Position numbers and translations under genes: made by a program. This document shows positions 3,555-36,600 of a DNA stretch of 38,811 bases, one piece after another. How positions within the stretch are numbered: the stretch's first letter is position 1; each line of letters begins with the position of its first letter. Under the pieces are notes generated by a model. That model did not search any database, was not told the DNA's origin, and saw only the letters and a program-made list of their open reading frames with translations. This DNA is from an uncultured Alphaproteobacteria bacterium (lineage in GTDB: Bacteria; Pseudomonadota; Alphaproteobacteria; Rickettsiales; UBA1997), in assembly GCA_903858915.1 (NCBI GenBank), contig CAIOKL010000278.1:1-38811 (forward strand), in the 5' to 3' direction.

Positions 3555-4175
3555 TCAAGAATTTTTTATAAAATCTTTCATGGGAACAATTTCATAATCG
3601 CAAAAATTATTTAAACAATCAATAAATTTTAAAGTTTTTATTGGCATTAATTGATGCTCATTAACGATTATTTTAGAAATTTTTAGATTTTTATTTTTTA
3701 TAGCTTCCAAACAACAAAGAGTGTGACTTATTGAACCTAAGTAATTTGAGGTAACTAATAAAATTGGTAATTTTAATTCTTTAGCCAAATCTAAAAAAGT
3801 AAAATGATTATTAATCGGCGTCATTACTCCGCCAGCGCCTTCTATCAATAATGTTTGTTGATTTTTTTGAGAATTTTTAATATTTTTTACGCAAAAATCT
3901 ATAATTTCTTTTTTGGAAATATTGCTTACAAAATTTGGGGAAAGAGCTTTTTTAAAACGCCAAGGAGAAATTTTATCAAGATTTATGTTATTTATTTTGA
4001 TATTTTGCGCCATTAAAATTTTAGCGCTATCAGAATTATTATCATTGGTAAAGCCTGTTATTATTGGCTTAATGGCATTATATTTGGAATTTTTTTTGCA
4101 TAAATTTTCGACAAGAAAAGTTTTACCGATATCGGTCCCGACCGCTAAAACTATATAAGATTTTTCGTTGAGCAT
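3555..4175 (-). CDS. bioD: Dethiobiotin synthetase-like ATPase
   Basis: P-loop-like VGTDIGKT and LLIEGAGGVMTPI motifs typical of BioD, 206 aa. No other bio genes in the window. Confidence 0.8.
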   Translation of the reverse strand: MLNEKSYIVLAVGTDIGKTFLVENLCKKNSKYNAIKPIITGFTNDNNSDSAKILMAQNIKINNINLDKISPWRFKKALSPNFVSNISKKEIIDFCVKNIKNSQKNQQTLLIEGAGGVMTPINNHFTFLDLAKELKLPILLVTSNYLGSISHTLCCLEAIKNKNLKISKIIVNEHQLMPIKTLKFIDCLNNFCDYEIVPMKDFIKNS

Positions 4176-20088: not shown

Positions 20089-20285
20089 TTTGATAAAAAT
20101 TCTTTGATATAAAGATAAAAATTTGCCGACAAATCTACTTTAAAAAAATCCAAATAACAAGAAAAAATTTATTAAAAAAATCTTACAAAAAAAATGCTAA
20201 AATAAAATCAAAAACTTACTTGTCTTATAGAAAAAAAAGGTTAAAATTTAATAGTTATTTTTAATTTCATAAATTGCATTTTTTC

Positions 20286-21665
20286 ATGAATAAATTTATC
20301 GTTTACGGCCTAGGAATTTCAGGGATTTCGACCGCTAAAGCACTTGCCCAAAAAAACTTTGAAGTTACTGCAACCGATGATAATCAAAGGCTAATAGAAG
20401 ATGATGCTCAAAAATACCCAGAAATAAATTTCAAAAACTGTTCTGAAATTTCTTTCGATAAAGACACCAAAATTTCATTTGCTCCCGGAATCCCTCTGCA
20501 CTTCCCAAGGCCACATAAAATTCTCGAAATTTGTCAGAAAACTCAAGCGCAATTATCGTGTGATATTGAAATTTTTTACGAATTAAATCACTTAAATAAT
20601 AATTTTATTGGCATCACGGGAACTAACGGCAAATCAACGACTACAGCCTTAACTGGCTTCATTTTTGAGAACCTAAAAGTGCCATCAAAAATTGGCGGAA
20701 ATATTGGTATTGCTTGCTTCGACTTGCCACAAAATCAAAATAATTTTAACTACATTTTAGAAGTTTCTTCATATCAACTTGATTTGATGAAAAATGTGCG
20801 TTTTAACATCGCATGTCTTTTGAATATTACGCCCGATCACATTGATCGCCACGGCTCTTTTGAAGAATATATTCACTCCAAAAAAAGAATTTTTTTGAAT
20901 CAAAATGCGCAAGATTTTGCCGTAATCGACATTGATAATCCGAACTCCGCAAAAGTTTTTGCAGAATTAAAAAATAATCAAAATTTTCAAGCAAATTTAG
21001 TTGAAATTTCTACCGCAAAAATTCCGCAAAATGGCGTTGCGGTTATTGAAAATAAAGTTTTGGTAAATTTACAAAATCAAAAATTTGAATTTGAAATTAA
21101 TCCAATTTTAAAGGGTAAACATAATCACCAAAATATCGCTTGCGCTATTGCAATTACTTGTTGCTATCTCATTAAAAATGCGCAATTTAATCAACAAAAA
21201 ATTCAACAAATTATTAAAATTATTGAAGAATTTAAAGGCTTAAAACACCGTATGCAATTGGTGGGAGCGGTTGATGGAATTAGCTTTGTCAACGATAGCA
21301 AAGCTACCAATGCCGAATCAACCGAAAACGCATTAAAATCTTATGATAATATTTTTTGGATTTTGGGCGGTAAAGCCAAAGAAGGCGGAATTGAAAGCCT
21401 CAAGCCCTATTTTTCAAAAATTCAAAAAGCTTATTTAATCGGTGAAGCTTCCGATGAATTTGCTAAATTTCTTGCGCAAAATTTCGTAAATTATGAAAAA
21501 TGCCAAACACTTAAAAACGCTTTCGATAAAGCTTTGATCGATGCAAAATCATCAAATTTAATTGAAAAAAACATTATTCTCTCACCCGCATGCGCTTCAT
21601 TTGATCAATGGAAAAATTTTGAAGAGCGCGGTGATTTTTTTTGTAAATTAGTAAATGATATTTAA
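20286..21665 (+). CDS. murD: UDP-N-acetylmuramoylalanine--D-glutamate ligase
   Basis: N-terminal VYGLGISGIS and Mur ligase P-loop GITGTNGKSTT. The ORF-track start at 20274 is TTG; I prefer the ATG at 20286 (MNKFIVYGLG). Confidence 0.92.
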   Translation: MNKFIVYGLGISGISTAKALAQKNFEVTATDDNQRLIEDDAQKYPEINFKNCSEISFDKDTKISFAPGIPLHFPRPHKILEICQKTQAQLSCDIEIFYELNHLNNNFIGITGTNGKSTTTALTGFIFENLKVPSKIGGNIGIACFDLPQNQNNFNYILEVSSYQLDLMKNVRFNIACLLNITPDHIDRHGSFEEYIHSKKRIFLNQNAQDFAVIDIDNPNSAKVFAELKNNQNFQANLVEISTAKIPQNGVAVIENKVLVNLQNQKFEFEINPILKGKHNHQNIACAIAITCCYLIKNAQFNQQKIQQIIKIIEEFKGLKHRMQLVGAVDGISFVNDSKATNAESTENALKSYDNIFWILGGKAKEGGIESLKPYFSKIQKAYLIGEASDEFAKFLAQNFVNYEKCQTLKNAFDKALIDAKSSNLIEKNIILSPACASFDQWKNFEERGDFFCKLVNDI

Positions 21666-24600
21666 AAAAATTTATACATTTTTAAACAGTTACTTCAATG
21701 GAAATAAGCTTTCCAAAGCCCTTTGGACGCTTATTTTTATTTTTACCCTCGCCTTTTCGGGCGTTTTATTTTTTACAGTTAAATCTATTGCGCGAACTGC
21801 AGCTCAACAAGAAGCTATAGCAGAACTTGCTAGTCAGGGGATTATTTACGGCGAAACTGAATGGGAAGCAGAGGAGAGGGAGAGGTTAGCGGCTGAAAAT
21901 GCGAGAATAGCTCAAGCTGCTTCATCTCTAACTTTAACAAATATGAACACCGCGCCAACTGTTAGTTATGTTTCAAGTGGGTTTTCGGTCGATAAAGTAA
22001 ACGAGTTTCATATTTTATATCAAAAACAAGGTCTTCTAGATAATAAAATTTATACTTCATATTTACCTCCCAAAGATACTTTTAACAAAGACACAGGGAC
22101 TGAACACACTCTTGATCCTTGTCTTTATTTGGGTCAGAGTGGACTTAAAATGATCGGAAGAGATTGTATGATCAAAATTCCATTTGACTGCGGAAGCCCT
22201 CCAAATCAAATAACGGCAAAACCGGGCGAAAATTGCCTTTCATATTCGGCCGTATTTAACACCATTTCTGGTGGCAAAAAACTTGATCCAAAAAATTGTT
22301 CCGGTGTTGGCGCTGTAGATAAAACCAATTGCTTATCAACGCAAAGACCTTATTGCCACCTTACTCAAAACCCAATACTTGGAATTAATTGTAGACTTGC
22401 GCCGTGTAATTTAATTCCAAATCATCAATATCGAAGACCCGGAGTTAATTGTTTGGCGGATTGTAATGATATTTCGGGAATCCATATTTCCGAAGCACAA
22501 TTTTTTATGGAAGGTTTTAATTGCTTATCTTCTTGCCGAACTTCTACGCCAAAATCAATTGGGGCAAATTGCGTTTTAGAGTTCAATGATTATGTAATGC
22601 CATTATGTACTGTCATCGATGCAAACACAAAACATTTTAACCTAACCACCGATCAAACTAGAAGAGAGGGATGTTTAGATGTTATCGATTTGCCTCTCTG
22701 CGTAGGTGGTGGCGATCAAGAACTTCAAAATTGTGTTAAAGAATGCAATGCCGTAACTTCTGGTAGTCACAATAAAAATTGTGTTAATTTTGATCAACTA
22801 TCGAGCGCTAAATATAATGGATATGTAAATAAAAAATGCCATAGTTATTTTGACATAACCAGTTTGGGCGCGAATCCAAATTGCACTAAAATCGAATGTG
22901 ATAAACTATCAATTACAGAATTAGCCAGATCTCTTAATATATTTGATGTTACGGAGAATCGAAAATATTGTACTCTTGCAAAATATACAAACTTTAGTAT
23001 CGCTCAATTTTATGCAATAAATTCTATAGAACCTTCTAAAGCCTATCTCAGAGAATATGCTTTGGCGGATAAGCCTTGCTATTCTAGAGGAGATACCGAA
23101 GAAATTGAAACAATTCTCAGTAGCGCTTTTTTTGGTAGCTTCGGTAATACCAAAATTGCATATTTAAAAGCTCACGCCAAGAGTAAATATAGCATTGAAA
23201 ACATTACAGTTTCAGATGAACAAGTTACCAAGGGGCATGCAGATTTTGTTTCAGATTACATTTATGCACCCGAAAGCATGTGCCATGTAGACAACGCCTC
23301 TCAAATGATCTCGTGCGAAAATTATAAAAGAAGCGAAATCCCCACAGCTCCTTACGATTGCAATGCTAAATCTTTTTGTGCGAATTGTCCGCAGACAATA
23401 ACTGGTATTTGCTCTCAAGAATCAGATCAATATTGCTATAAAAATGGCATAAATTGTAATAGTTCAATTAATCAAATTTATCCGGTATGTTCAAGAACTC
23501 TTGTGGCGGAATCTAGACCTACTTCTGACGAATATGTTTCTTGGTTCTTCAGGCCAAATGTTCCGGGGGATGCCATAAAAACTAATAATACTAATACAAC
23601 GACTTCTTTAGCTGCTATGAGTGGTTATCCAACCGAAAGCGTTACTACTAACAATCCTAATGAAACTATCTACATGAATATAGATAATATGAAAGCAAAT
23701 GGATACGGAGCAGACTTCTTAGGATTCGGAGTTAGTCGACGAATAACTCCTCCATCTCAAGGTATGGATATGGGAATTCCCGGTGTTGGAGCTGGATATA
23801 TTTGCGGAATGGGAGGAAATTATCGCGGAGTTCCAAATAATGATTCCGCTTATTTTAGAGGTGAAGTTCAAACCAATTATGAAATGGACGGAAAAGTTTC
23901 GCATGCTGTAGATGTTTGTATTAGATATGCAAGTGGATCCAATGCATTACAAAGTTGTGGATATAGAGACTGTCATAGTTCTTGTGCCTTCGGAATTTGT
24001 ACAAAAATATGTGGAATCGATGTTTGTAGAACTCTAAAAATAGTAGAAGGTCCAAATGTGCCGATTCAAAATTGTGGTTCTAATGATTATAACTTTAGAA
24101 ACGGCAATGGTGCCGAATGTGTTAAAACATACCAAACAAGTCTTGATGCCGTTAGTGAAAATACAAGAGTTAGAATTTATAAACCAGATGCTAGTAATTA
24201 TATATGCGCCGTTCTTGAATTTCATGGTATTACAACGGATCTTCAAACAAACCCATTTTTTAATGGAACGGAATATTTTTCGGTACCAGATCAAAATAAT
24301 AAAGGTGAAGCTAGAAAAATTTGCGTTAGCGGAACTTATGTAAAAAGTTCTGATTCTTGCGTTAATGGTATCGACTCAAATGGTGACAAAGCTAATTCAA
24401 ATACTTGGAGAACTTCCAAAATAATTAAATATATCATGGAGCCGTCGGTCGATAACTATATTGATCAATATGGCATCGGTCCAGTTGATTTAAGTTCAAA
24501 ACATACCGATCCAGAAACCAAAAAAGAAGTTAATCAAACTATTGGTAGAGTTAATTTTAATGTTAAAAGATACTTTGAAACTTCGGATTGTATTAAACAT

Positions 24601-27600
24601 AAACAAAGAATTGGTGCGCCAGTTTACCATTCTGTAGCTACAATTATAAATTCAGAAAGGCTTTTTTTGCCATCTATTATTATTGAAAAAAAATGTAAAA
24701 TTGCATCATTGGGAACTGAGTGTGAAAATGTTGATGAAACTGATTTTTTTAAACCGGCTATTTTAATTTTGTATGGTGGAAAAGATGTTTCTAGCTCAAT
24801 ACTCTCTGATGATCCAAGCACTCTAAACACCAACTACAAAATTCTTAAAATTGATGCTACAGAAAATGTAAGCGCTGATTATATCATAAAAGCTGCTAAT
24901 TTTGGAATTTCGGGAATAGATGTTTCTCAAAGAGTTTTTATTAAAAAAGAATTTTCTGCCTCTCAACCTAAATTATGTTTGTATAAAAAGACTCCTATGG
25001 GAACTAATCCCGAAACATACAAAGAAGACATTATACAATGCGTAAATAGAAAAAGAGCGACTAGAGGTTTGATTCAACCCGCCGTAGTCGTACCAGCTCA
25101 TACCAATCTTTCATTTCAAACGGGCTTTTTAAAAAACGAAGGAGCTTCACATAATTCAATTATTGGAGAATTGCCAAAGCAAGAATTCCAATTTATCAAC
25201 ATGACAACAAATATAAGAAATAAAGAGGATTTAAAAAAATGTATTGATATTACTAGTCAGGGCTTCCCAATTTGCATTCAAAGAGAAGAATGCTCTCTTC
25301 TTAACAATGAATGTGTTGAAAATGAAAAAGCTTTAATTATCGAAAAAAATAGTGCCAATCCACAAATTGGAATTATTCAACAAAAAGAACTTACTAGCAA
25401 TTATTGCAAAAAAGAACTGCTTGCAAAATGTAATTCGAAAAAAGGTTATGCACTTACCGCTTCCAATCAAACTTTAAACACTTCAACAACTCAGGGCGTA
25501 GGTTTTAACGCAGAAAACAATCCCGCATATCACGGTTGGTTTAATGAATTTTGCATTGTAAGTGGCATAGAAAAACTCGATGACCCAGCTTCAAAAGTAT
25601 ATGTACTAACTCAGATTAATACCGATGGGCAATTAGGGTCTTGTATTAAAGATAATAATTGTGCAACTTGTAACGATCTTCGTTGTTTGAAAGCTAGCTG
25701 TTGTGCGATATTAGACGCTACTTTATTAAGCTCTGCGTCAGCTCGATTAGCAACTTCGCACGAACTTGGTTTATGTTATAATCTAGACAGTTATTTAAGA
25801 ACTTGTTCCGCAATTTCATATGGAAAAAATAGCGATATAAGTGATCCATTTTTTATCGGAGAAAGTTATTTAACTAATCCCCATCAATCGCATATAGACA
25901 GATTCAATTCATCGCCTTATCGCAGTTTCAATGCGGAATATGAAGTAGCTTATGCCGGCACCAGTTCTGTAAAAGGAAAATGCGTTGGTTTTTATAAAAA
26001 TGCAATTTCAGATACCGATCCAACGGCGAATTGTAATGCGAATGGAGAATGGGAAGGCTTTACCGAATCCTCATGCACAATGTATACTTGTCCGACTAAA
26101 AAACTGCCATTAGGCAATGGTGGCGCCGATTTAAATGGCGCATATCCTTCAGATTATGATGCGAGTGGAGTGCAACTATCTTCAAAAAGAGGCGTTATTG
26201 ACGGATATGCAAATTGGGAGTCGTTGAAAAAAACCACTATTCAAAAACAACAAGCGACGGCGACTTCATGTATTGTTGGATTTGCCAAAAAAAATGCCTC
26301 ATTTAATTCTAGCCAAATAAGCTTGGCCGAAGTTTCTCCAAGTGTATTACTCTCCTCATTTAATAACTATAAAGCAACTTTAAATCCTGAAGATCAGAAA
26401 GCGATTTTGTCGTTATTTAGCAAAATTAATGGCTATTCGGGCGGAAGCTCTCCAACTAGAAATTGTAATCAGCTTGGTTCTTGGGAATCGGTAACGGATT
26501 CTTGCGAAAGAATAACCTGCCCTCCCATTAAATTTACTGAGTCAGCTGATGCGGGCGCATTTAATTTGAATGATTATGATTTGACAGTAGCTGATTCTTC
26601 AGGTCAAAAAATTATTTATAGTATAAATTCTCCATACGGATCTTCAAGTGGCGACTTACCAACAAAAGCCAAATTTTTAACAAGCGTCGCTATAAATGCT
26701 CCGGCTTATTTATCGGTTACAAACAGCATGGATGCTTATAAATTTTTGATTAAAGATTCGGATGGTGTAAACAATGCCAGCATAGATAGAAATAAAGTTT
26801 ATGTAGTTGAGATTTCTGCGGGTAGTTGGAAAATAATTCCAAACCAAAATGATGATGTTTTAAAAATTTTGTGGCAAAAATCCGGCGGTGCTTCTTTTGA
26901 TAAAGGTTACGCTTTGCGAAGTAATCTATTTGATTACGAACCGACCGATGATCCCAATGATAAACACAGAGTCATTGGAACATGTAATGAAAAAATGGGA
27001 TTTAAATCTTTATCGCAAGAATCTAGACCTCAACTTACATGCGACTCAAGCGGTAATTGGGTAAATCTTTCAAATCCTTGCGTTACTGATTGCGGAGCGA
27101 TTTCCGATCCTGTGGCTAGAAACGCTATTCACGGATTTTCACGGTGGTTAAAATCAACTGCCGTAGTTGGTCAATCGAAAATTGAAACATCTAGTGGTTG
27201 TTCTGCAGGTGGTTATCAGCCATATCCATATACGCCATTATTTGACGAAGAAGGAACAAAAAAAGATTTTGGAATTGGTGCGAACGATAGAGAATTTATT
27301 ACATCCGATAACTTCGATGCTATAACCGTTTCAAATGACGGAGCCAATTTTATTGCGCAAGCTGGAACTGGAGAAAACTTAACTCCGTCGGTGAATAATA
27401 TTGATGGAATTTATTACAATCTTAAAATACAAACCTCGGTTTCCGATGTTCAAACATCCGCTTTCAGCTCAACTCAAGCTGGCGTTCAAACTGTATTTTA
27501 TTTATTTGACAGCGCGCAAAGACTCAGTATGTCTCCTCCTTCTAATGCGGTTTGGTCAAAAATTAATTTCTCAAGTTTCGGCACTCCCGACTATTCCATA

Positions 27601-30600
27601 AAAGGCAATGTTGTTGAAAACGCATCTTGCCGTTCGCCTTATTCTAAATTAATTTTCGCTAATAAATGTATTGGAAAAACTAATTGCTCCGTGGGTTTGT
27701 CTGATTTTACAAATTACGATAGTACCAACACTTGCAACCAAACAAATCCTGGCAATGGAGTAAATGGTGAACAAAATGACACGGTTATTAGCTATGGTTC
27801 GGGCGGTGGCGGTGGCGGTGGCAATAATGCGGGAGCTGGAGGCGCTCCAACGAGTTCAATAAATATAAACGGCATTTCGGGAAGTTCATATTACGATAAA
27901 GCATTTCATGTAACTCCGCCAATTCTATCAAATGCGTTAAATAATGGTGTCAAAGTTGATTTAAAAGTGGCTGATACCGGTCAATTCATCGGCAAAAATG
28001 GTTCGGTTAAAATTATCGAATCAACAACTTCTAGTTTCTCAGCCCCGAGAGAATCTAATTACACTTCACCAGGAGAGAATACTCACACCGTTACAGCGGG
28101 TAGTTCTGGACAAAATATTTATATCAAATATGAAATGAGTGGCGCGGGTGGCGGTGGTGGCGGACCAGGTTTGAATCAAGGAACTGACGGCGCCAGCGGA
28201 ACAAAAATGACCAATGGAGTTTTTGTGGTTAAAAATGGCACTATTTTAAAAATTTATGTCGGCGGTGGCGGTGGCGCTGGTAAAACTAAGTGCATTACTC
28301 CGTCAGGGGGTGGAGCGTTTTTAGATCCTAAACTATTTCAACCAAATAACAATATTTTTGCTTACAAAAAACCCGAAAGCAATTTCCTAGTTAAGGCATT
28401 AAGAGGAATCGGATCGATGTTTATTTCTGAAGGTTGGGCGGCGGCTCAACTAAGTTGTTATTTTTATAATAATGTCTGGTCAGATGGATATAGTCCGATT
28501 CTTGTTAATCAACTCGTTAATACTGGCTCATACTCGGCATTAAAATTAAAATGTTATGGATCTTTATCATTTTGTATATGTAGCACCTTTACATGTTTAA
28601 ATAATATAGAAAATACAACAACTTATAATACACAAATAGATCCAAGCGATACACCAATATCGTTGAGATGCAAAGATGGTTATAGAAATAATGGAGAAGG
28701 ACCAAAACTTACTTGCAAAAGAAATTTAACCAATCCTTCGATAAAAGATGAAATCCCAACTGGGAGTTGCATCGCAAATGAATGTTATCTTGATTCATGG
28801 ACGGGATTTAGCCATGGAACTAATATCGTTGAAGGAGCTGGTGCTCTCAATTGTAGTCCCGGCTATACCGCTAGTACTTCACCGGCACCTGGTTATTATT
28901 GCGGAGCTGATGGTTTGAATCAAGGGATCCGTGCGACACAGGTAGGATCTTGCACTCTAAATTCTTGTACGCTTAGCGGAAGTGCATATTCTAATGCAGG
29001 AAGTGTTTCTGGATCTGGTGCAATTAATTGTAATTCTGGTTATACTGCTAGCACCTCTCCAGCGCCAACTTATGTTTGTAATACAAATAGTGGTCCCGCA
29101 ACAGTTAGTGGATCTTGCACTCCAAATTCTTGTACGCTTAGCGGAAGTGCATATTCTAATGCAGGAAGTGTTTCTGGATCTGGCGCAATTAGTTGTAATT
29201 CTGGCTATACTGCTAGCACCTCTCCATCGCCAACTTATGTTTGTAATACAAATAGTGGTCCCGCAACAGTTAGTGGATCTTGCACTCCAAATTCTTGTAC
29301 GCTTAGCGGAAATGCATTTTCTAATGCAGGAAGTGTTTCTGGATCTGGCGCAATTAGTTGTAATTCTGGCTATACTGCTAGCACCTCTCCATCGCCAAGT
29401 TACTATTGCGCAACAAATAACTCTGCCTCAGATGCTACAATTTTAGGATCTTGCACTCTAATCACTTGTTCTTCTAATGCAATTACTGGATTTTCTAGCA
29501 AAACTATAAATTACACAACAGCAGTTACCTCTGATGTTGCTTGTGATTCCGGTTATTCGGGAACGGTATCTTACGGTCCTTGCACTACTCAAGACGCATC
29601 ATTAACTGTTAATGGAACTTGCACCGCAAACCAACCATGCTCAATTCCTGCTGGAAATGGACATGGAGCGCTTGAGATTGCTCCAACTGGAAGTAGAAGT
29701 GGAAGCATTACTTGCAATGCCGGTTCTGGTTACACTGGTTTGGGCGATTTAGCTTATTCTTGCGGTTCGAGTGCTACACCAAAATATACGGGAAATTGCA
29801 ATTGCGCCGCTGGATATTCTAGAGAAGAAACAAATATAGCAAATAGCGCTTGCAATCCAATTTTTTGCATTGCGGCCATTCCACCGGGCGTGACTCAAAC
29901 AGCAGATACAATAAAAATATCAAAATTTGCAAGTTTTACTACAAATAATGTAAATTTCAATGTTATTTATTTGGATATAAGGCAATTTAATACTGAAAAT
30001 TTTAATAATGCAAATAAAATAACAAAAATTATATTAAACAATTATTTATTAAATGTTACTTTTAGAGCTTCGGATAGGTATAATGTTATGTACAATGTTT
30101 CTAATAATGCAATAGTGGATTTAATAAATTTGAGTGCTATAAAACTTAGTACTATAGATAGTGGTTATTATTATTATAATCTTTCAACGAATGATTCCAC
30201 AGCTTTTATTTTTGGTAAAAGTTTAAATTCTGGTGACACTTCTTTAAGTTGTGATAAAACTGGTTATTTAGGAAGCGTCAATTACAATTGTACAACTAGT
30301 GGATTTTTATTTGCCCTTGGAGCTGCAACGAATGCAACTGATAAGAATTCTTGCCCTTGCGATACCGCTGCTAATAATTATACTAAATTATCAGATGGGA
30401 CTTGCGCTAAAATCGAATGCACCATTAATAGTGGTACTGCGGGATTTGTAAGTGGTACTAAAATTCCTTATAACACCTCAACTTCAACAAAAAATTGCAA
30501 CGATCCGCTTTACAATAATTCTCTGACAGCAGATTTCCCAGCTTGTACTAGCATAGCAAATGTCACTCCCATTGCAAATGGAAATGGATGTCAAAAAATT

Positions 30601-33600
30601 TCTTGCTCAACCACAGGAAAAAATGTAAATGTAACGGATAATACAATATATAGAAAAATTAACTCCGCGGGAGTTGATGAGGAGCAAACTTTAACTTGCG
30701 ACACTGGTTATTCAAATGGAGCATCCACGACAATAAGCGCTAAATGTTTAGCAAATATGGTTAATGGCGTTCCTACTACAGGTGCTTTAAGCAATATTGT
30801 TGGAACTTGCTCCGCAATTACTTGCACTGCGCCTCTGGCGAATGGTTATTCAGCTAAAACTGGCTTACCTTATACCGCCTTAATTGGAGCTGGGACAATA
30901 TCATGCGATACAGCCGGTTATAGCGGAAATGCCAATTACACTTGTCAAACTAAAGATGCCGATGTAACCATTACCAAAACTTGCGATTGCGCCACGGGTT
31001 ATGCTAAAAATGGAAGCGGAGTTTGCGTTAAACCATGTACAATTTCTGATGGAAATGGTTATTTAGGAAAAACAATTAATGCTACAGATTCTAGAACAGG
31101 AACTATTACTTGTGGTGGCACTGGTTATTTTACCACTTCGTTTGTCAACTATTCTTGTGATGATGCCGGAACGCCTACAATAGGTGGAAGTTGCACTTGT
31201 GCTTCTGGCTACGCTAATACCTCCTCTGATAGTGCTTGTAAGGCAATTAAATGTCAAACTAGTGCAACCGGATTTAAGGCGAACACCGAAATTTCTTATA
31301 GTACTTCGGTGGCAAATTACTTTTGTAATGATCCGCTGTATAATAATACCGTAACCACAGCTTTCCCAGCTTGCACTGTTCAAGGAAATTTCCTTTCAGC
31401 AATAGCAACAGATAATTATTGCCTTGCAAATAAAATTTCTTGTTCAACCGCAGGAAAAAATGTAAATGTAGCGGATGATAAAATATATAGAATAATTGAC
31501 GCCACGGGAGTTGATCAAGCGCAATCTTTACTTTGCGCTACGGGTTATTCGAATTCGGGAAGTGCAAATATATCAGCTACATGTATTCCGGAAATGTTTG
31601 ATAGAGGTGGAGTATTAGTTCCGAAAACAGGATCTTTAGCTGTTACTGGCACTTGTAATCTAATTACTTGTTCTGCGCCTCCAATCACAACAGGAATCTC
31701 AAAAAACAAAGGTTACAATCCGCTTAGTTACACGGCGTTACCATATTCAGCGGGAGAAAATAATTCAACAATTGCTTGTTCGGGACCAAATTATAAAGGA
31801 TATGCCGGCTATACTTGTACGGCCTACAATTCATTTGCAACGATTACCTCAAAATGTGCTTGTGGTGATGGTTATTCTGAAAATTCTTACGGAGATTGCG
31901 TTGCAATTGTTTGTTATGCTGATGCTGCCAAAGGATATTTAGCAAAAACCGGCTTAAATTATTCTACAGGATCTGGAACAATTGCTTGTGATCAGACTGG
32001 TTATGGTGGAACTGTTAATTATACTTGTACAGCTAATGGTAAAGTTGGTAGCGTTGAAGTTTGCGGTTGTGCCACTGGTTATGCTAAAGATGCAAACAAA
32101 GATTGCGTTAGAATTACTTGTGATATTCCTGCCGGCAATGGATTTAATGCCGGCAAAATTGAATATACAACAACTCAGTTAAATTATTCTTGTAACGCGA
32201 CAGGTTATCGAACCGATACAACCGCTCTTTTTTCTTGTTCAGATAATGGTGTTAGTACAACGGGGAAACTTGGGACAGGACTTAATTCTTGTCTAAGATT
32301 AACTTGCGATATAGATCGGGGCAATGGGTATTCGGCAAAAAGTGGTTTGTATTATTCTACAACAACTAATGGTTATATAGCATCAAATGGCATATATTCT
32401 TCTACAGGAACTGGAACGATCGCTTGCGATCAAACTGGTTATAGCACTGGAACGATTAGATATATTTGTGAAACTCATGGTCATAAGGCAACTATAGTTA
32501 GTGGTGATTCTTGTGCTTGCGCTCCAAATTATTATAAAGATACATATGGCGCTTGCGTTCCGATGACTTGTACTTCAGACACTGATCCGGTGGTGATAGA
32601 AAAAACAGGAGCGATAGAAACAAAAGATTTGCCAATAACAACAAATGGAACGATAGCTTGCGAAACGACTGCTCACACAGGAACCGCAACTTATACTTGT
32701 TCAGAAGATACAACGCGAACACCTCGTGTTGCGAAAGGAATTTTTACAATTGTCACTCCTTGCGCTTGCAAAACTGGTTATGAAGAGAAAGAGGCTGTTT
32801 GTACGAAAATAAATTGCGGAATATTGGCTTCCACCAGTCCAGGATTTGTAGATACGACAGCTCCTTATAGCGCCATCAAAGTAAATTATTTCTGTAACAA
32901 TCCATTGTATGATAACACTGTTTCTGTTGAATTTCCAGCTTGCACAACTTCTGCAGGAATTAATTATACGCCGAATACTGCAACTTCGCCAGCGACTAAT
33001 GTTTGTAAAAAAATTAGTTGTACAATTCCCGCAGATTATCATGTAACACAAACTTCAATATTCGCTAGCGCTTCTAGTGAAAATTTAATATGCGCTACAG
33101 GTTATTCAAATGGATCATCCACAACAATAAGCGTTAACTGCTCGACGGTAAACGCTCAAAGAACTAATTATGATTTAACAATAAGTAGTGTTCCGAAATC
33201 GGGATCTTTAAATAATAAAAATGGGAGTTGCGCTCGATTAGCTTGCACTGTTCCAGCTGGTTCAAATACAACAAAAGACGGAACCTTGGTAGATTTTACG
33301 GGAGATACCACAACCTCTTTAAATTGCATTACTGGCTATGCCGGATCCCCAACTTATACTTGCAAAGGAACTACTACTGCAGTTTATGCGTCCTCCGGAA
33401 CTCCTTGCGCAAAAATTACTTGCACCGTTCCAACTGGAATTACTGGATTTGATTCTGGTACAACTGGTATAGAATTCGGAACTTTTGATTATTATTGCAA
33501 TACCGAAGGTTTTCAAACTTCCACCAAAGCAAATTTTTCTTGCACTGCTAATTCCACTAATCCAACAACAAGCACTGTAGGTACATTTTCTCAAATCTCC

Positions 33601-36600
33601 AACAGTTGCGCAAGAATTACTTGTTCAGCTGATGCTAACAAAGGTTATTCAGCTAAAACTAACTTACCTTATGCCAAAGATGTACTCGGAACAATTGCTT
33701 GCGCAACGCCTAATTATCAAGGAAATGCAAATTATACCTGCACAACTCATGGCGTAACTGCAACAATCACCTCGGCTTGTCAATGTGGAACGGGCTATGA
33801 AAGAAACGCCTACAATTATTGCGTTCCAATTACTTGTAACATTCCAGCTGGAACGGGTTATACAGCTCACTATAGTTTGGATTATACCGGAGCGGGCGTT
33901 TCACGGGATTTTGATTGTGATACCGAAGGTTATTACGGAAAAGTTTCTTATATATGTCCGGGCGGTGGCGTGCGGGCTACTTATACCGATACTTGCACAA
34001 GAGTAAAATGTAATTTACCGCTTAGCGCCAATTCAAACATCGTACCTACAATGGTAAGTGGAAGTGAATATAGAGAAGTTGATTATTCCGCGACTCCTAG
34101 AGAATACACTTGCGGAAGTGGTTTTAGAAAAACACTTGATCTTAATTATGCACAATTAAATCCTACTTACACATGCGTTAAAAATACTAATCTGGCGCAA
34201 CAAAGTAATCCTTCGACGGTTGCTGTTCAAAATGCTTGCGTTGAAATTACTTGTACCGATCCATACACCAATATTACTTATTCATTTAATGGCGGGCAAC
34301 CTCAAATATTTCCTTGCGATACTTCGCGAGGTCTTTGGGGTGAGTCGGAATTAAACTGTAACGAAGCCGGAATTGTTACTAAGACTAAATCCTGTTATAC
34401 GGTGAAATGTTTAATTCCAGCCGATAAAAACACTTCCAGAGACGGAGCTCTTGTTGATTTTTCGGTTGATTTTTTTGGGCTAGATTGCAAACAAGGTTTT
34501 TATTATGAAAACGCAACTAGACCTAAATATAAATGCATTTACACAGCTAATGAAGCCGTTGTAAATCGTGGAGCGTTGACTTTCGAGGGAACTTGTCAAA
34601 GAATTACTTGTACAATACCGACGGAAGGAATTAACTCATTAAATTCAGTTCTCGATAGCACCAGCGTTAATTGGAATGGCGCTGATTACATTACTACAAG
34701 CTGTAGAGAAGGATTCTATCAATCGAATCTAGCGTTACCTCCTAAATATTCATGTTCGGGAGCTAATCCAATTGGCGAATTGAGAGTCATGAATCCTTGC
34801 GCGCCAGTAACTTGTGATCTTCCTGAGCGCTTTGGAATGTTAGCAAAAACTAATTTAGAATATGGTCAAGGAAAGACTACTAGCTGTAACAAATCAGGGT
34901 ATTTTGGAACCGTTACATATAATTGCGTCACCCCAATTACTTTAGGAAAAGGAGTGACATCGGTGGCCTCCTCAACTTGCGTAGAAGCGTCTTGTGTCGC
35001 AAGTGGAAATGTCGTTGCCACATTTAACACCTTCGTAAGTTCTGGATCAGGTGGAGCGGGTGGAATTGGTGGAAAAATTAGCGACCCAATTGCATTTTTA
35101 AGAGGTGGAAATGGTGGAAATTCAACAACTTCGCGCACCTCTGGTTCGGGCGGTGGCGGTGGTTCAGCTTCAATGATTTCGATCGAAAATAGAATTATCG
35201 CTATAGCTGGCGGTGGCGGTGGCGGAGCTGGTGGCGGTGGAGTTGAAAATGCTACAAACGCTTTAACGAAAATTAGTAATACCGAAGATTTAAATGTCAG
35301 ATTAATTGCCAATGTTTTTGGACCTTATTTTATTGGCGAGATGCAATATTCTCCAATCAACATTACGCCTCAAAAAACTACCGGAATTTTATATAATCAA
35401 GCCTCATATCCAGATCCTTTTTCATTAACAATTCCAGGCGGAACCTTCATTAATGATATTTTCTTTGCTTCATACGGAAGTCCAACAATAGATTTTACAG
35501 CTCCCGAATCTTTGATTTTGAAATATGGAACTTGTAATGATTCAAGTTCGTTAACGCAATCAATCAATCAATGTAGCGGTAAATCATCCTGCATAATCAA
35601 TACTAATTCATTTTCTAGATGCCAATCTGAAGCTTCTAAAAAATTTGGTTTAGTTGCATCTTATTATTATCAAGAGCCAACTCTTCAAGTGATAAACTCA
35701 GCGGGACTTCCTGCTTATAGTTTAAAAGAACGCTACAATAATCAAACTATTCCAGCAACTAATATGAGCAATGGTCAAGTTTATACTTTCTTATTAAACA
35801 AAGAAGATAATATTTGGTTCAAATATCCTTATTTAGCCGATGAATATTTAATCTCAGAAGCTGTTTCTGGTAACAAAATTAAAATTAAATTTCATAGAAC
35901 AAACACCACCTTTTCTCCAAGATTAAAAATTAACGGAATATCTTCTACAATTTCAAAACTAGATGAATCGGGACAGCCTATTTCTCTAAGCGTTGGTTAT
36001 ATTAATCCTACTAAAATTTATATTTTAACTAAATATTCAGATAGGTGGATAATAAGAGAATATATCTCTCAAGAAGTTGCTGGAGCATTGCCGAGTGGAG
36101 AGCGGGTTCCTCCTAGTAGAAGCTGTATGACAAACAAAATCTCTTCGACCGGGGCTGTTAATGTAATGTGGAGTTTACCAAATTCTTCTTGTATAAACAG
36201 ATGTCCAGGATATAACATGAGGGATAACATTGGTGATGATAGAATTGGGGTTGGAGCAACAAAGCATTCAACTTCAGCGGGTGAAGGTATAGTTTATTGG
36301 AGTGATACATTGCCAAACAATTGGAGTTATAAGAAATTTAAATCGAATGTATCCAGTTCTGACGCTAACGGTAGGAAGGTTTTTCAAGAAACTGAAGATA
36401 CTCTTACTCCTTTGAATTTCAGGGAAAATCGTTCGGGACCATATTTTGCATTAGCTAGATTCTGTAATGGAGATGGGTCTTGGAATGCGCCAATTCCACT
36501 TTGTGTTTACAATAATGCAAATTCTACTAATTCTGCCATTACTCCCGTATTGAATGGAACCTCTTATATTTCGGGAGAAAGTCAATCATATCTAAAAGTT

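What the first reader, a model, noticed from the sequence alone, without database searches (positions are those of the whole stretch)
28594..34995. About 30 tandem Sushi/CCP-like four-Cys modules interleaved with EGF-signature hairpins
Manual parsing gives consecutive 55-75-aa units. Examples are ITCTAPLANGYSAKTGLPYTALIGAGTISCDTAGYSGNANYTCQTKDADVTITKTC, ITCDIPAGNGFNAGKIEYTTTQLNYSCNATGYRTDTTALFSC...SC and ITCTVPTGITGFDSG...YYCNTEGFQTSTKANFSC...SC. Cys1 followed by x-x-P-x-G, Cys2-x-x-G-Y and Y/F-x-Cys3 match Sushi spacing. Between some units sit hairpins that, by my manual check, satisfy the PROSITE EGF_2 pattern as I recall it (C-x-C-x(2)-[GP]-[FYW]-x(4,8)-C). The six matches are CDCATGYAKNGSGVC, CTCASGYANTSSDSAC, CACGDGYSENSYGDC, CGCATGYAKDANKDC, CACKTGYEEKEAVC and CQCGTGYERNAYNYC. 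Three more (CNCAAGY..., CACAPNYY..., CPCDTAANNY...) are degenerate. The central modules lack the conserved Sushi Trp, so they may be a divergent or convergent fold.
Basis: partly seen in the sequence, partly recalled or inferred. Interest (0 to 1): 0.75.

Follow-up and report, generated by a model that had tools for sequence, protein, structure and literature searches.

The report
Bacterial giant protein's Sushi-like stalk
The region encodes the middle of a 5,330-residue bacterial surface protein: a chain of 30 small disulfide-locked modules that are probably divergent, tryptophan-free relatives of the animal "Sushi" (complement-control) domain, from an unannotated bacterial module family that in related proteins sits behind pilus-subunit heads.

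Summary
Nt 28594-34995 lies inside one 15,993-nt ORF (21655-37647, +, 5,330 aa). It encodes exactly 30 tandem four-Cys modules joined by 4-residue linkers. Nine modules carry an extra C-x-C...C hairpin, and six of those match the EGF_2 regex (0.02 expected by chance).

Pfam Sushi and EGF models essentially fail (1 of 29 modules, below threshold). In the other direction:
- A profile of the modules finds only CCP proteins at the top of the PDB.
- Every animal hit that was Pfam-scanned is a Sushi protein, and a Trp-free sponge Sushi protein matches in register from C1 to C4.
- hhalign against canonical Sushi gives 80% probability.
- A pLDDT-94 AlphaFold model of three modules has DAF, SPICE, CD46 and factor H as its top Foldseek hits, but weakly (best E=0.011).

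The hairpins are three-Cys EGF/TIL-type end motifs, not EGF domains.

The module family is bacterial and has no Pfam or NCBIfam model. It has at least 171 clusters, many behind prepilin or VirB2 pilin N-termini. I read the array as a rigid extracellular stalk of an adhesin-like fibre. The host is an uncultured low-GC alphaproteobacterium with a genome of at least about 1.5 Mb.

This is a new variant of a known kind, of moderate interest.

The parts
21655..37647 (+). Giant ORF, 5,330 aa, that contains the finding. Its start overlaps the murD stop by 11 nt.
   Evidence: The identical protein P0163 is on record unnamed in NCBI/ENA on a 38,811-nt contig. Orthologues: P0016, P0062, P0063, P0079, P0010, P0014, P0115 and the L002 protein.
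21655..21789 (+). N-terminal basic stretch plus about 21 hydrophobic residues (MIFKKIYTFLN...ALWTLIFIFTLAFSGVLFFTV). Read as a Sec signal peptide or signal anchor, not a prepilin GFxxxE motif.
   Evidence: Read from the translation. The N-terminus is conserved in P0016, P0063 and P0079. No predictor was run.
25963..26076 (+). Upstream flank: Trp-containing Sushi-like half-module (C..GFY...C..NGEW......C).
   Evidence: Pfam Ephrin_CRD 35.1 bits, cutoff 27. Motif scan.
26983..27081 (+). Upstream flank: second Trp-containing Sushi-like half-module (C...GF...C..SGNW......C).
   Evidence: Pfam Sushi E=0.017, sub-threshold. Motif scan.
27547..27744 (+). SUEL-type lectin-like segment upstream of the array (sub-threshold).
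   Evidence: Pfam SUEL_Lectin 27.5 bits, cutoff 31.4, E=4.1e-6.
27877..28359 (+). Glycine-rich segment 1, with poly-Gly runs after beta-strand-like stretches (...ILKIYVGGGGGAG...).
   Evidence: Sequence and composition. No Pfam hit. Only motif-level resemblance to the Gly_rich_2 domain of relatives P0004 and P0051.
28588..34995 (+). The array: 30 tandem four-Cys CCP(Sushi)-like modules (aa 2312-4447).
   Evidence: (self-profile i-Evalues 1e-6 to 4e-17).
28588..29625 (+). Modules 1-6, no hairpins. Modules 3-5 are a recent tandem triplication.
   Evidence: Module 1 is the only one hit by Pfam Sushi (19.4 bits).
28945..29439 (+). 165-nt (55-aa, one module) tandem repeat, about 3 copies at 97% and 84% identity to the reference copy.
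29632..29853 (+). Module 7 plus a degenerate hairpin (CNCAAGYSREETNIANSAC).
29860..30405 (+). Module 8, with a nested insertion, plus a degenerate hairpin (CPCDTAANNYTKLSDGTC).
29869..30249 (+). 127-residue Cys-free, Asn-rich insertion nested between C1 and C2 of module 8.
   Evidence: No Pfam hit. Similar nested inserts appear in homologue P0001.
30412..30813 (+). Modules 9 (NDPLYNN type) and 10 (KISCST..GKNVNV type). They begin a super-repeat of about 837 nt.
   Evidence: families D4, D5, D7; spacing 828-837 nt.
30817..31026 (+). Module 11 plus hairpin CDCATGYAKNGSGVC (EGF_2 match). This unit was modelled.
   Evidence: AF2 pLDDT 90.9, five strands plus a hairpin.
31030..31239 (+). Module 12 plus hairpin CTCASGYANTSSDSAC (EGF_2 match).
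31246..31659 (+). Modules 13-14, the second copy of the 9-10 pair.
31663..31899 (+). Module 15 plus hairpin CACGDGYSENSYGDC (EGF_2 match).
31906..32106 (+). Module 16 plus hairpin CGCATGYAKDANKDC (EGF_2 match).
32113..32295 (+). Module 17, no hairpin.
32299..32556 (+). Module 18 plus a degenerate hairpin (CACAPNYYKDTYGAC).
32563..32802 (+). Module 19 plus hairpin CACKTGYEEKEAVC (EGF_2 match).
32809..33612 (+). Modules 20-23, no hairpins. Modules 20-21 are the third copy of the 9-10 pair.
33616..33822 (+). Module 24 plus hairpin CQCGTGYERNAYNYC (EGF_2 match).
33829..34398 (+). Modules 25-27, no hairpins.
34402..34995 (+). Modules 28-30, no hairpins. These were modelled as a three-module rod.
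   Evidence: AF2 pLDDT 93.8, pTM 0.75. Foldseek top hits DAF, SPICE, CD46, factor H. Orthologous segments are 36-62% identical.
35002..35259 (+). Glycine-rich segment 2 (...IIAIAGGGGGGAGGGG...).
   Evidence: No Pfam hit.
35434..35610 (+). SUEL-type lectin-like segment downstream of the array (sub-threshold).
   Evidence: Pfam SUEL_Lectin 20.1 bits, cutoff 31.4.
36454..36504 (+). Downstream flank: Trp-containing Sushi-like C-terminal half-motif.
   Evidence: Pfam Sushi E=0.035 and Ephrin_CRD E=0.096, both weak.
20274..21665 (+). murD, immediately upstream and overlapping the giant ORF's start.
   Evidence: Pfam Mur ligase domains. The same murD-to-giant arrangement occurs in L002.

Best explanation
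Nt 28594-34995 encodes the central stalk of one 5,330-residue exported protein. The host is an uncultured, low-GC alphaproteobacterium. Related contigs reach 1.52 Mb, and its more distant relatives are labelled Rickettsiales.

The stalk is 30 head-to-tail beta-modules of 51-80 residues (module 8 is longer because of a nested insertion). Each has four invariant cysteines, and modules are joined by 4-residue linkers. The modules are most likely a divergent, tryptophan-free bacterial branch of the Sushi/CCP fold. Nine of them are extended by a C-x-C...C beta-hairpin. This is the same short motif that ends EGF and TIL domains. It would add one more disulfide and lengthen or stiffen the junction to the next module.

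The proposed mechanism is inferred:
1. The protein is exported by Sec through its N-terminal signal or anchor.
2. Its roughly 250 cysteines are oxidised outside the cytoplasm.
3. The array forms a protease-resistant, semi-rigid rod on the order of 100 nm. This takes about 3.5-4 nm per CCP module from general knowledge of CCP structures.
4. The rod spaces and presents the non-repeat domains at its two ends (SUEL-lectin-like, glycine-rich, Trp-containing Sushi-like and Cys/Trp-rich terminal regions), acting as an adhesion or contact fibre.

The same module family in related bacteria sits behind type IV prepilin N-termini (often with a LamG domain) or behind VirB2/TrbC pilin N-termini. It is often capped by a glycine-rich domain. 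That fits a spacer role in filament-displayed adhesins.
For: SHOWN
- One intact ORF with 30 regular modules and 9 hairpins.
- A profile of the window's own modules against all PDB sequences has only CCP proteins as its best hits: factor H 3.1e-7, factor H 9.8e-4, DAF 0.006, then CR2 and C4BP.
- A profile of 53 modules against 1.84 billion proteins gives 171 hits. All 18 animal hits examined are Sushi proteins: 17 scored Pfam Sushi E 1e-27 to 1e-186, and the eighteenth, P0057, is named SVEP1 by its source. Examples: CR2-like 1.9e-20, SVEP1 1.9e-17.
- The sponge protein P0015 has no Trp but scores Pfam Sushi 3.6e-77. It is hit at 1.4e-43, with 16-23 bits per domain, from C1 through C3; two of its 11 domains align on to C4.
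- hhalign of the window modules against 87 canonical Trp-containing Sushi domains gives 80% probability, P=1.3e-5, with C2, GY and C3 in register.
- The AF2 model of modules 28-30 has pLDDT 93.8. Its five best Foldseek PDB hits are DAF (E=0.011, prob 0.96), SPICE, CD46, factor H 19-20 and CD46 again. IL-15R-alpha and CD25 sushi domains appear further down.
- The single module plus hairpin has pLDDT 90.9, is all-beta, and its best hit is DAF.
- The flanks of the same protein contain Trp-bearing Sushi-like motifs, one above the Pfam Ephrin_CRD cutoff.
- Family context. At least 60 of the 150 listed relatives match a prepilin-type N-terminal motif by regex. Scans confirmed the prepilin domain in P0013 (TIGR02532 above cutoff; Pfam N_methyl just below its cutoff). 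LamG was found in P0009 and P0013. TrbC/VirB2 was found in P0022, P0051 and P0067. Gly_rich_2 was found in P0004 and P0051.
- The homologue P0001 (3,575 aa, about 45 modules) has a prepilin-like N-terminus. Three paralogous prepilin genes follow it.
- The pilin-type relative P0013 comes from a genome of the same lineage.
- A syntenic orthologue exists in a GTDB MAG.

INFERRED: export route, oxidation, rod length and adhesive function.
Against: - Pfam Sushi fails on 28 of 29 modules and on the family consensus. No EGF model hits.
- The Trp that defines the Sushi core is absent from all 30 modules.
- Foldseek never reaches E<=0.001. TM-scores are at most 0.39. The single-module model has no significant hit (E=1.1). 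The viral structure library returned no recognisable CCP protein.
- The very low E-values against animal proteins are inflated, because weak per-domain scores (5-14 bits) are summed over near-identical target repeats.
- hhalign covers only 33 columns.
- Disulfide connectivity is untested. All 444 full-length family modules keep all four Cys, so there is no natural knock-out to read.
- No secretion system, outer-membrane anchor or ligand is identified for this protein.
- Its own N-terminus is not a prepilin.
- The lectin-like hits are below Pfam cutoffs.
Confidence: 0.65

Rival explanations
1. The modules are a convergent, independently evolved four-Cys beta-module. They share only the short C-x-x-G-Y...C motif and similar Cys spacing with Sushi. 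They are not homologous to it and do not adopt its fold.
For: - No conserved Trp in any module.
- Pfam Sushi fails.
- Foldseek is not significant: best E 0.011 and TM 0.27-0.39, and the single module scores E=1.1.
- BFVD returned no recognisable CCP protein.
- The profile and hhalign matches concentrate on about 30 residues around C2-C3.
Against: - Among the many Cys-rich repeat families in the PDB and in the 1.84-billion library, the module core matched only Sushi proteins among the eukaryotic hits that were examined. P0108 matched through the hairpin columns only, and P0133, a Cys-rich protein with EGF-type Pfam hits, matched across module and hairpin columns.
- A Trp-free but Pfam-certified sponge Sushi protein matches from C1 through C3, and in two of its 11 domains on to C4, at 16-23 bits per domain.
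- The top five Foldseek hits for the three-module model are all CCP proteins.
- The same protein carries canonical Trp-bearing Sushi-like motifs in its flanks.
Confidence: 0.2
2. The protein is a host mimic. On this reading the CCP modules were acquired from an animal or protist host and are used, like poxvirus VCP/SPICE, to bind complement or other host factors.
For: - Structural neighbours include complement regulators and their viral mimic SPICE.
- More distant relatives of the organism are labelled Rickettsiales, an order rich in host-associated bacteria.
Against: - The modules are far from any animal Sushi domain. No Pfam hit, no Trp, and per-domain scores of 5-23 bits.
- The family is large and diversified within bacteria, with at least 135 of the 150 listed proteins, and is fused to bacterial pilin heads.
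- The organism encodes leucine, arginine, purine and haem biosynthesis steps, which argues against an obligate intracellular life.
- No complement-binding residues can be inferred from the sequence.
Confidence: 0.05
3. The protein is an envelope or cell-wall-associated structural element, such as a periplasm-spanning or surface-layer scaffold. It would be linked to cell-wall synthesis rather than acting as an adhesin.
For: - The ORF start overlaps the murD stop, so it is probably co-transcribed. This arrangement is conserved in L002 despite only 36% identity of the giant protein.
- No outer-membrane anchor or dedicated secretion genes are adjacent.
Against: - Relatives place the same modules on pilin subunits of two different extracellular filaments, together with lectin-type domains.
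- The giant protein evolves fast, at 36% identity against 64-91% for its neighbours. That is typical of exposed surface proteins.
- A rod of about 100 nm does not fit in a periplasm.
Confidence: 0.1

Closest known systems
Sushi / CCP / SCR domain (Pfam PF00084), as in factor H, DAF/CD55, CD46, CR2, and CSMD and SVEP1 proteins
   Same: - Module length of about 60 residues, with four invariant Cys at comparable spacing.
- Pro shortly after C1, the C2-x-x-G-[YF] motif, and an aromatic residue two positions before C3.
- Short 4-residue linkers and long tandem arrays.
- All-beta prediction.
- Profile, profile-profile and Foldseek searches all point to CCP proteins first.
   Different: - No Trp between C3 and C4 in any of the 30 modules, and no Pro before C4.
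- The C3-C4 segment is variable (12-30 residues) and Thr/Ser-rich.
- Below the Pfam threshold.
- Bacterial, with partners unknown for Sushi (pilin N-termini, Gly_rich_2).
- Structural similarity is weak by Foldseek (E at best 0.011).
- Disulfide pattern unverified.
Trp-less Sushi repeats of sponge CSMD3-like protein XP_065193118.1 (Sycon ciliatum; P0015)
   Same: - The closest certified Sushi sequence found.
- No Trp, and the same C-T-[VI]-P start.
- The Y-x-C-[ND]-T-G-Y motif and 4-residue linkers between modules.
- Matches the module profile from C1 through C3, and in two domains on to C4.
   Different: - Animal protein, with Leu in the Trp position and Pro before C4.
- Regular 55-57-residue repeats without hairpins.
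- Recognised by Pfam at about 23 bits per domain, whereas the bacterial modules are not.
   Same: - The hairpins reproduce C-x-C-x2-[GP]-[FYW]-x(4,8)-C in 6 of 9 cases, followed by [VI]-x-x-x-C.
- The hairpin columns of the profile pick up P0108, a protein with Teneurin-EGF and TIL Pfam hits, and IMPI/TIL chains at E about 0.3.
   Different: - Only three cysteines, the first being the module's own C4.
- No N-terminal EGF half.
- No EGF or TIL Pfam hit in the window.
- It is an appended mini-hairpin, not a domain.
Eph-receptor cysteine-rich region (Pfam Ephrin_CRD, PF25599: Sushi-like plus EGF-like)
   Same: - It combines a Sushi-like unit with an EGF-like cysteine motif.
- The flank at aa 1437-1474 scores 35.1 bits, above its cutoff of 27.
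   Different: The hit lies outside the finding's array, in a Trp-containing segment. The central modules give no Ephrin_CRD hit.
Large bacterial pilin-linked and repeat-stalk adhesins. Examples from general knowledge: type IV minor or tip pilins with large C-terminal domains, and giant Ig-like-repeat adhesins
   Same: - A long array of small beta-modules acts as a stalk that presents terminal binding domains.
- Relatives carry genuine prepilin (TIGR02532) or VirB2/TrbC heads.
   Different: - The repeat unit is disulfide-rich and CCP-like rather than Ig-like or Ca-binding.
- The window protein itself has an ordinary signal or anchor rather than a pilin head.
- No T1SS or type V features were found.

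Membership tests
Sushi/CCP (PF00084) | Module of about 60 residues with four invariant cysteines at C1-(~25-30)-C2-(~12-15)-C3-(~12-15)-C4 spacing | tested here: met
   30 of 30 modules. C1-C2 21-40 (one is 128), C2-C3 12-21, C3-C4 12-30. All 444 full-length family modules read CCCC.
Sushi/CCP (PF00084) | Near-invariant Trp between C3 and C4 packing the hydrophobic core | tested here: not met
   0 of 30 modules have Trp between C3 and C4. Trp is 0.1% of the region. Trp-less but Pfam-certified Sushi domains do exist (P0015).
Sushi/CCP (PF00084) | Score at or above the curated Pfam gathering threshold (20.7 bits) | tested here: not met
   Whole region: no hit at E<=1. Per module: 1 of 29, at 19.4 bits. 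The family consensus gives no hit.
Sushi/CCP (PF00084) | Sequence-profile relationship to certified Sushi domains, in register | tested here: met
   - Top PDB-sequence hits are all CCP proteins; factor H 3.1e-7.
- Animal Sushi proteins at 1e-20 to 1e-5.
- P0015 at 1.4e-43, from C1 through C3 and in two domains to C4.
- hhalign 80% probability, P=1.3e-5, over 33 columns.

Caveat: the summed scores are inflated by repeats within the targets.
Sushi/CCP (PF00084) | CCP beta-sandwich fold | tested here: inconclusive
   - AF2 models are confident (pLDDT 90.9 and 93.8) and all-beta.
- Foldseek PDB top hits are CCP proteins, but E is 0.011-1.3 and TM at most 0.39.
- The single module scores E=1.1.
- BFVD gave no recognisable CCP protein.
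Sushi/CCP (PF00084) | Disulfides C1-C3 and C2-C4 | not testable with these tools
   No model coordinates were available, and no natural Cys-pair losses occur among 444 modules.
Sushi/CCP (PF00084) | Tandem arrays with short (3-8 residue) linkers | tested here: met
   27 C-x4-C junctions against 6.8 expected. The 30 modules are consecutive.
EGF-like domain | Six cysteines forming 1-3, 2-4 and 5-6 disulfides in about 35-40 residues | tested here: not met
   Hairpins have three cysteines in 14-19 residues, the first being the module's C4.
EGF-like domain | EGF_2 signature C-x-C-x2-[GP]-[FYW]-x(4,8)-C (pattern from memory, not checked against PROSITE) | tested here: met
   6 matches, 0.02 expected, none outside the array. 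3 further hairpins are degenerate.
EGF-like domain | Hit to any Pfam EGF-family model | tested here: not met
   None at E<=10 on modules with hairpins or on their consensus.
Type IV pilin-like proteins (TIGR02532 / PF07963) | N-terminal G/A-F-[ST]-L-x-E prepilin cleavage and methylation motif followed by a hydrophobic helix | tested here: not met
   The window protein starts MIFKKIYTFLN...KALWTLIFIF and has no Glu at +5. No NCBIfam or Pfam hit. The motif is met in relatives only: P0013 scores TIGR02532 21.5 bits, cutoff 16.3, and 60 of 150 match by regex.
Type V / T1SS giant adhesins | C-terminal beta-barrel, TPS domain, RTX or Ig-like repeats | tested here: not met
   No such Pfam or NCBIfam hits anywhere in the 5,330 aa.

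The most novel reading that the evidence does not exclude
The window exposes an unannotated bacterial branch of the Sushi/CCP fold that has lost the core tryptophan. One environmental alphaproteobacterial lineage appears to use it as a universal disulfide-stapled stalk. The stalk is attached to type IV pilins, to VirB2-type T4SS pilins and to giant Sec-exported proteins, and it builds long contact fibres. If the pilin fusions are real and assembled, they would be very unusual pilus subunits. VirB2 pilins are normally about 7 kDa, and these carry extensions of 700-1,100 residues. It would also reopen the question of whether the Sushi fold is truly a eukaryotic invention or has a bacterial history.
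Probability: 0.35. Interest if true: 0.75.

Novelty: new variant of a known kind. Interest (0 to 1): 0.55.

Why it matters
Sushi/CCP domains are treated as a hallmark of animal extracellular proteins such as complement regulators and adhesion and receptor proteins. Here a bacterial lineage carries many probable Sushi-like modules: about 600 were detected in roughly 135 bacterial protein clusters. Current domain libraries miss them, because the modules lack the signature tryptophan.

Recognising the family would have three practical effects:
- It would allow annotation of many 'hypothetical' giant and pilin-like proteins in metagenomes.
- It would supply a natural test of how a CCP core can be built without Trp.
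- It would point to a modular way of building long, oxidatively cross-linked surface fibres on two different pilus systems.

For the organism, an abundant uncultured alphaproteobacterium, the gene takes roughly 1% of a 1.5-Mb genome. That suggests cell-cell or cell-particle contact matters to how it lives.

Tried and rejected
- Pfam on the whole region at E<=1 gave nothing. Pfam on each module and on two family consensus sequences at E<=10 gave one sub-threshold Sushi hit and no EGF hit.
- NCBIfam gave nothing on any part of the protein.
- The word-indexed homologue search with the 2,134-aa region returned one protein, P0001. It also missed the window's own database entry, P0163. Low-complexity words probably swamped the candidate list.
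- The first two-module alignment for AlphaFold (A2) mis-paired C4 with C6 in hairpin-less rows, so I abandoned it. I used a single unit (A3) and an orthologue-based three-module alignment (A4) instead.
- Foldseek with the single module plus hairpin gave no significant hit. Foldseek against viral predicted structures gave nothing meaningful.
- I looked for natural cysteine-pair losses to infer disulfide connectivity. There are none in 444 full-length modules.
- Pairwise and phmmer comparison of the window's Gly-rich segments with the Gly_rich_2 domains of P0004 and P0051 was not significant. Only a motif-level resemblance remains.
- Exact look-ups of murD and leuA to name the source record found nothing on record. 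The purE look-up returned only a short ENA contig.
- Literature searches for bacterial, pilin or Rickettsiales Sushi domains found nothing relevant in the held library.
- ESPR/type V, RTX/T1SS and prepilin readings of the window protein's own N- and C-termini were considered and dropped, because no supporting hits or motifs were found.
- tRNA scan of the window: none.

Full report
**1. What is at the coordinates**

The window has 31 ORFs of at least 100 aa. One of them, 21655-37647 on the + strand, is 5,330 codons long. The finding (28594-34995) lies in frame inside it, at aa 2314-4447.

Cysteine is 6.5% of this stretch against 3.5% in the rest of the protein. Trp is almost absent from it.

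Listing every Cys-to-Cys interval shows a strictly periodic pattern:
- C1, then 21-40 residues, then C2.
- Then 12-21 residues to C3.
- Then 12-30 residues to C4.
- Then a 4-residue linker to the next C1.

The pattern repeats 30 times without interruption.

Nine modules add a hairpin after C4, of the form C4-x-C5-x(11-15)-C6, before the linker. Shuffling the region 5,000 times gives a mean of 0.02 matches and a maximum of 2. There are no matches elsewhere in the protein.

Other features of the array:
- Module 8 carries a 127-residue Cys-free insertion between C1 and C2.
- Modules 3-5 are a 165-nt tandem repeat at 97% identity.
- Modules 9-10, 13-14 and 20-21 are copies spaced about 837 nt apart.

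The array therefore grew by duplications both old and recent.

**2. Is it Sushi/CCP?**

- Pfam finds nothing in the 2,134-aa region at E<=1.
- Scanned one by one at E<=10, only module 1 touches Sushi, at 19.4 bits against a cutoff of 20.7.
- No EGF model hits, and two family consensus sequences hit nothing.
- NCBIfam has no model for the modules either.

*Searching in the opposite direction is more sensitive and gives a consistent answer.*

A profile of the window's 29 regular modules was run against all PDB chain sequences. The best hits were factor H (3.1e-7), factor H (9.8e-4) and DAF (0.006). CR2 and C4BP followed, and only then noise from antibodies.

A 53-module profile (window plus homologue P0001) was run against 1.84 billion representative proteins and returned 171 proteins at E<=1e-3. 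Most are bacterial (section 3).

Eighteen animal proteins among these hits were examined. Seventeen scored Pfam Sushi at E 1e-27 to 1e-186. The eighteenth, P0057, was not scanned but is named SVEP1 by its source. Examples are a turtle CR2-like protein, Ciona SVEP1 and CSMD-like proteins.

These very low E-values need discounting. Each target domain contributes only 5-14 bits, and the targets are internally repetitive.

The most useful hit is P0015, a CSMD3-like protein of the sponge Sycon ciliatum.
- It has no tryptophan at all, yet scores Pfam Sushi 3.6e-77.
- It matches the bacterial module profile at 1.4e-43.
- Each domain contributes 16-23 bits, aligned from C1 through C3.
- Two of its 11 domains align on to C4.

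It bridges certified Sushi domains and the bacterial modules, and it shows that Sushi domains can do without the Trp.

I also ran hhalign of the window modules against 87 canonical, Trp-containing Sushi domains cut from the animal hits. It gives 80% probability and P=1.3e-5, with C2, G-Y and C3 in register, but over only 33 columns.

*Structure.*

The AlphaFold2 model of module 11 plus its hairpin (53-row alignment) has pLDDT 90.9. It shows five short strands plus a two-stranded hairpin. Its Foldseek search of the PDB has no significant hit. The best is DAF at E=1.1. IL-15R-alpha sushi, the CRF-R1 ectodomain and HormR domains also appear in the list.

A three-module model (modules 28-30, 24-row alignment including orthologues) has pLDDT 93.8 and pTM 0.75. 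Its five best PDB matches are all CCP proteins:

| Rank | Match | E-value |
|---|---|---|
| 1 | DAF (prob 0.96) | 0.011 |
| 2 | SPICE | 0.14 |
| 3 | CD46 SCR1-2 | 0.3 |
| 4 | Factor H 19-20 | 0.86 |
| 5 | CD46 | 1.3 |

IL-15R-alpha and CD25 sushi domains appear lower down.

TM-scores are low, at most 0.39. That is partly expected for multi-domain rods. The viral structure library returned no recognisable CCP protein.

The structural evidence is therefore specific in direction but weak in strength.

*Other evidence.*

Disulfide connectivity could not be tested. Model coordinates are not exposed, and all 444 full-length modules of the family retain all four cysteines.

The flanks of the same protein contain Trp-bearing Sushi-type motifs (C..GF...C...G.W......C). 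One of them is above the Pfam Ephrin_CRD cutoff, at 35.1 bits against 27.

*Judgement.*

I put the probability at about 0.75 that the modules are a divergent, Trp-free branch of the Sushi/CCP fold. The main rival, at about 0.2, is convergence on a similar four-Cys motif.

The hairpins are not EGF domains. They have three cysteines, one borrowed from the module, and reproduce only the C-terminal C4-x-C5...C6 sub-motif shared by EGF and TIL domains. In agreement, the hairpin columns of the profile pick up P0108, which has Teneurin-EGF and TIL Pfam hits, and weakly pick up IMPI/TIL chains.

**3. Relatives and context**

*The host.* The window is a bacterial chromosome fragment with GC 31-40%. Genes identified by Pfam:
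- Envelope and cell wall: lpxB, a Mur ligase, mraY, murD.
- Amino acid synthesis: argC, argB, leuA.
- Purine synthesis: purC, purQ, a purL/purM-type AIR-synthase-family gene, purE.
- Others: hemF, tyrS, a ccmC-like gene, a 7Fe-type ferredoxin, a transglutaminase-like gene and an isolated T2SS-F/PilC-type gene.

By eye from translations, there are also bioD-, def- and purN-like genes. This is a Gram-negative cell with biosynthetic capacity.

The giant ORF's start overlaps the murD stop.

A GTDB representative MAG, titled 'uncultured Rickettsia sp.', has the same murD-to-giant arrangement. MurD is 64% identical and the purL-like protein 91%. The giant protein is only 36% identical over the part compared, but it has the same architecture, including modules and hairpins.

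TyrRS relatives at 87-94% identity are numerous in metagenomes. One lies on a 1.52-Mb contig that is fully syntenic with the window. Relatives at about 71% are named Rickettsiales, Alphaproteobacteria or Proteobacteria MAGs.

The window's own protein is on record unnamed, on a 38,811-nt contig.

*Three architectures carry the module.*

1. Giant orthologues whose N-terminus begins MIFKKI (P0016, P0063 and P0079, plus 5'-truncated fragments).
2. Proteins of 500-1,300 aa with a prepilin-type N-terminus.
   - 60 of the 150 listed match the motif by regex.
   - P0013 scores TIGR02532 above its cutoff.
   - Two of the four scanned also had a LamG domain, and one related protein ended in a Gly_rich_2 domain.
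3. Proteins with a TrbC/VirB2 pilin N-terminus (Pfam E 1e-9 to 1e-12) followed by modules. One of the three scanned also ends in Gly_rich_2. JGI names one of them a VirB2 pilin.

*Links to the window's lineage.*
- P0001 is the only homologue found by the word-indexed search. It has 3,575 aa and about 45 modules. Its N-terminus and pilin-like head are prepilin-like, and three paralogous prepilin genes follow it, one ending in two modules.
- P0013's contig shares the HAD-ferredoxin-ccmC microsynteny with the window. CcmC is 67% identical, so pilin-type and giant versions coexist in one lineage.

**4. How it most likely works**

*Shown.* The protein has one N-terminal hydrophobic segment. About 250 cysteines are arranged in regular modules. 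The module array is bracketed on both sides by glycine-rich segments, sub-threshold SUEL-lectin-like segments and Trp-bearing Sushi-like motifs.

*Inferred.*
- Sec export followed by oxidative folding outside the cytoplasm.
- An extended, protease-resistant rod. At about 3.5-4 nm per CCP module (general knowledge), 30 modules would span on the order of 100 nm.
- The high pTM of the three-module model fits defined junctions between modules.
- The hairpins would add a third disulfide and extra length at nine junctions.

Relatives put the same modules between a filament-forming pilin head and a terminal domain. The most economical reading is therefore a spacer or stalk in adhesion or contact fibres. 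The flanking lectin-like and Gly-rich regions would be the candidate binding parts. The giant protein's fast divergence relative to its neighbours fits a surface-exposed molecule.

*Unknown.* How a 560-kDa oxidised protein crosses the outer membrane, and what it binds.

Rivals are given separately: convergent fold, host mimicry, and an envelope scaffold linked to murD.

**5. Comparison with known families, and novelty**

The module works like, and probably is, a Sushi/CCP module. It fails two membership criteria that were tested (the Trp and the Pfam threshold) and one that could not be tested (the disulfide map).

I therefore file it as a new variant of a known kind and not as a plain member. 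It is a bacterial, Trp-free, library-invisible CCP-like family with new partners: prepilin heads, VirB2 heads, Gly_rich_2 and appended EGF/TIL-type hairpins.

Nothing on bacterial or pilin-linked Sushi domains turned up in the held literature. The library is incomplete, so this is absence of evidence only.

**6. Verdict**

- Observation: confirmed.
- Interpretation: supported, with caveats.
- Interest: 0.55. The array itself is a repeat stalk of a giant surface protein, which is a familiar theme. The likely identity of the repeat, its invisibility to current domain models and its pilin-fused relatives would surprise a specialist, and they can be tested directly.

Noticed in passing
window 25963-28359 and 35002-36504: The domains flanking the array are in mirror order. 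Upstream: Trp-Sushi-like, SUEL-lectin-like, Gly-rich. Downstream: Gly-rich, SUEL-lectin-like, Trp-Sushi-like. The SUEL hits are below the Pfam cutoff, and the Gly-rich segments have no family hit.
   Followed up: partly
window 29869-30249: A 127-residue Cys-free, Asn-rich segment is nested inside module 8, between C1 and C2. It has no Pfam hit. Homologue P0001 has comparable nested inserts in some modules, so this may be a domain-in-domain insertion.
   Followed up: partly
window 21655-21665 (also L002 9845-9858): The giant ORF's ATG lies 11 nt before the murD stop. The same overlap (14 nt) is conserved in the MAG orthologue, which suggests co-transcription or translational coupling with a cell-wall gene. 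In the window, leuA, a HAD hydrolase gene, a ferredoxin gene, a ccmC-like gene, a transglutaminase-like gene and a purL/purM-type gene lie between mraY and murD.
   Followed up: partly
window 4175-5371 (-): A T2SS-F/PilC-type platform gene sits alone among housekeeping genes (bioD-like, def, purN, purQ). No other pilus or T2SS genes are in the window. It may be relevant because the module family is pilin-linked in relatives.
   Followed up: partly
relatives P0022, P0051, P0067 (not in the window): These proteins have a TrbC/VirB2 T4SS-pilin N-terminus followed by 700-1,100 residues of the same modules. P0051 also ends in a Gly_rich_2 domain, and P0067 has a laminin-EGF hit. That would be an extraordinarily large VirB2 pilin.
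   Followed up: partly
L001 2023-16418: P0001 (3,575 aa, prepilin-like head plus about 45 modules) is followed by three paralogous prepilin-type genes sharing a '...KRLPCPA...' head domain. The middle one ends in two CCP-like modules.
   Followed up: partly
window 22000-23500 (aa ~130-620 of the giant protein): A separate N-terminal Cys-rich region has recurring '..G.NC....C' motifs and no Pfam or NCBIfam hit. It is conserved in the L002 orthologue.
   Followed up: no
window 36742-37644 (aa 5029-5330): The C-terminal roughly 300 residues are rich in Trp, Tyr and Cys and have no family hit. There is no beta-barrel-like or RTX-like ending.
   Followed up: no
window 32488-37647 compared with P0002: A metagenomic fragment, P0002 (1,720 aa), is 91.6% identical to the C-terminal 1,719 residues. 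Some modules are 100% identical (28-30) and other stretches are 78-90%. This is a mosaic pattern of divergence between two close variants.
   Followed up: partly
L002 about 18000-18100 (aa 2744-2777 of its giant protein): The MAG orthologue has a run of masked or unknown bases (translated as X) inside its module array. The flanking repeats are near-identical, so this is probably an assembly problem in the repeat.
   Followed up: no
window 28982-29446 (+), 31063-31383 (-), 32701-33051 (-), 34866-35312 (-): ORFs of 106-154 aa lie in other frames or on the other strand inside the giant gene. They are most likely spurious by-products of the repetitive, stop-poor sequence.
   Followed up: no
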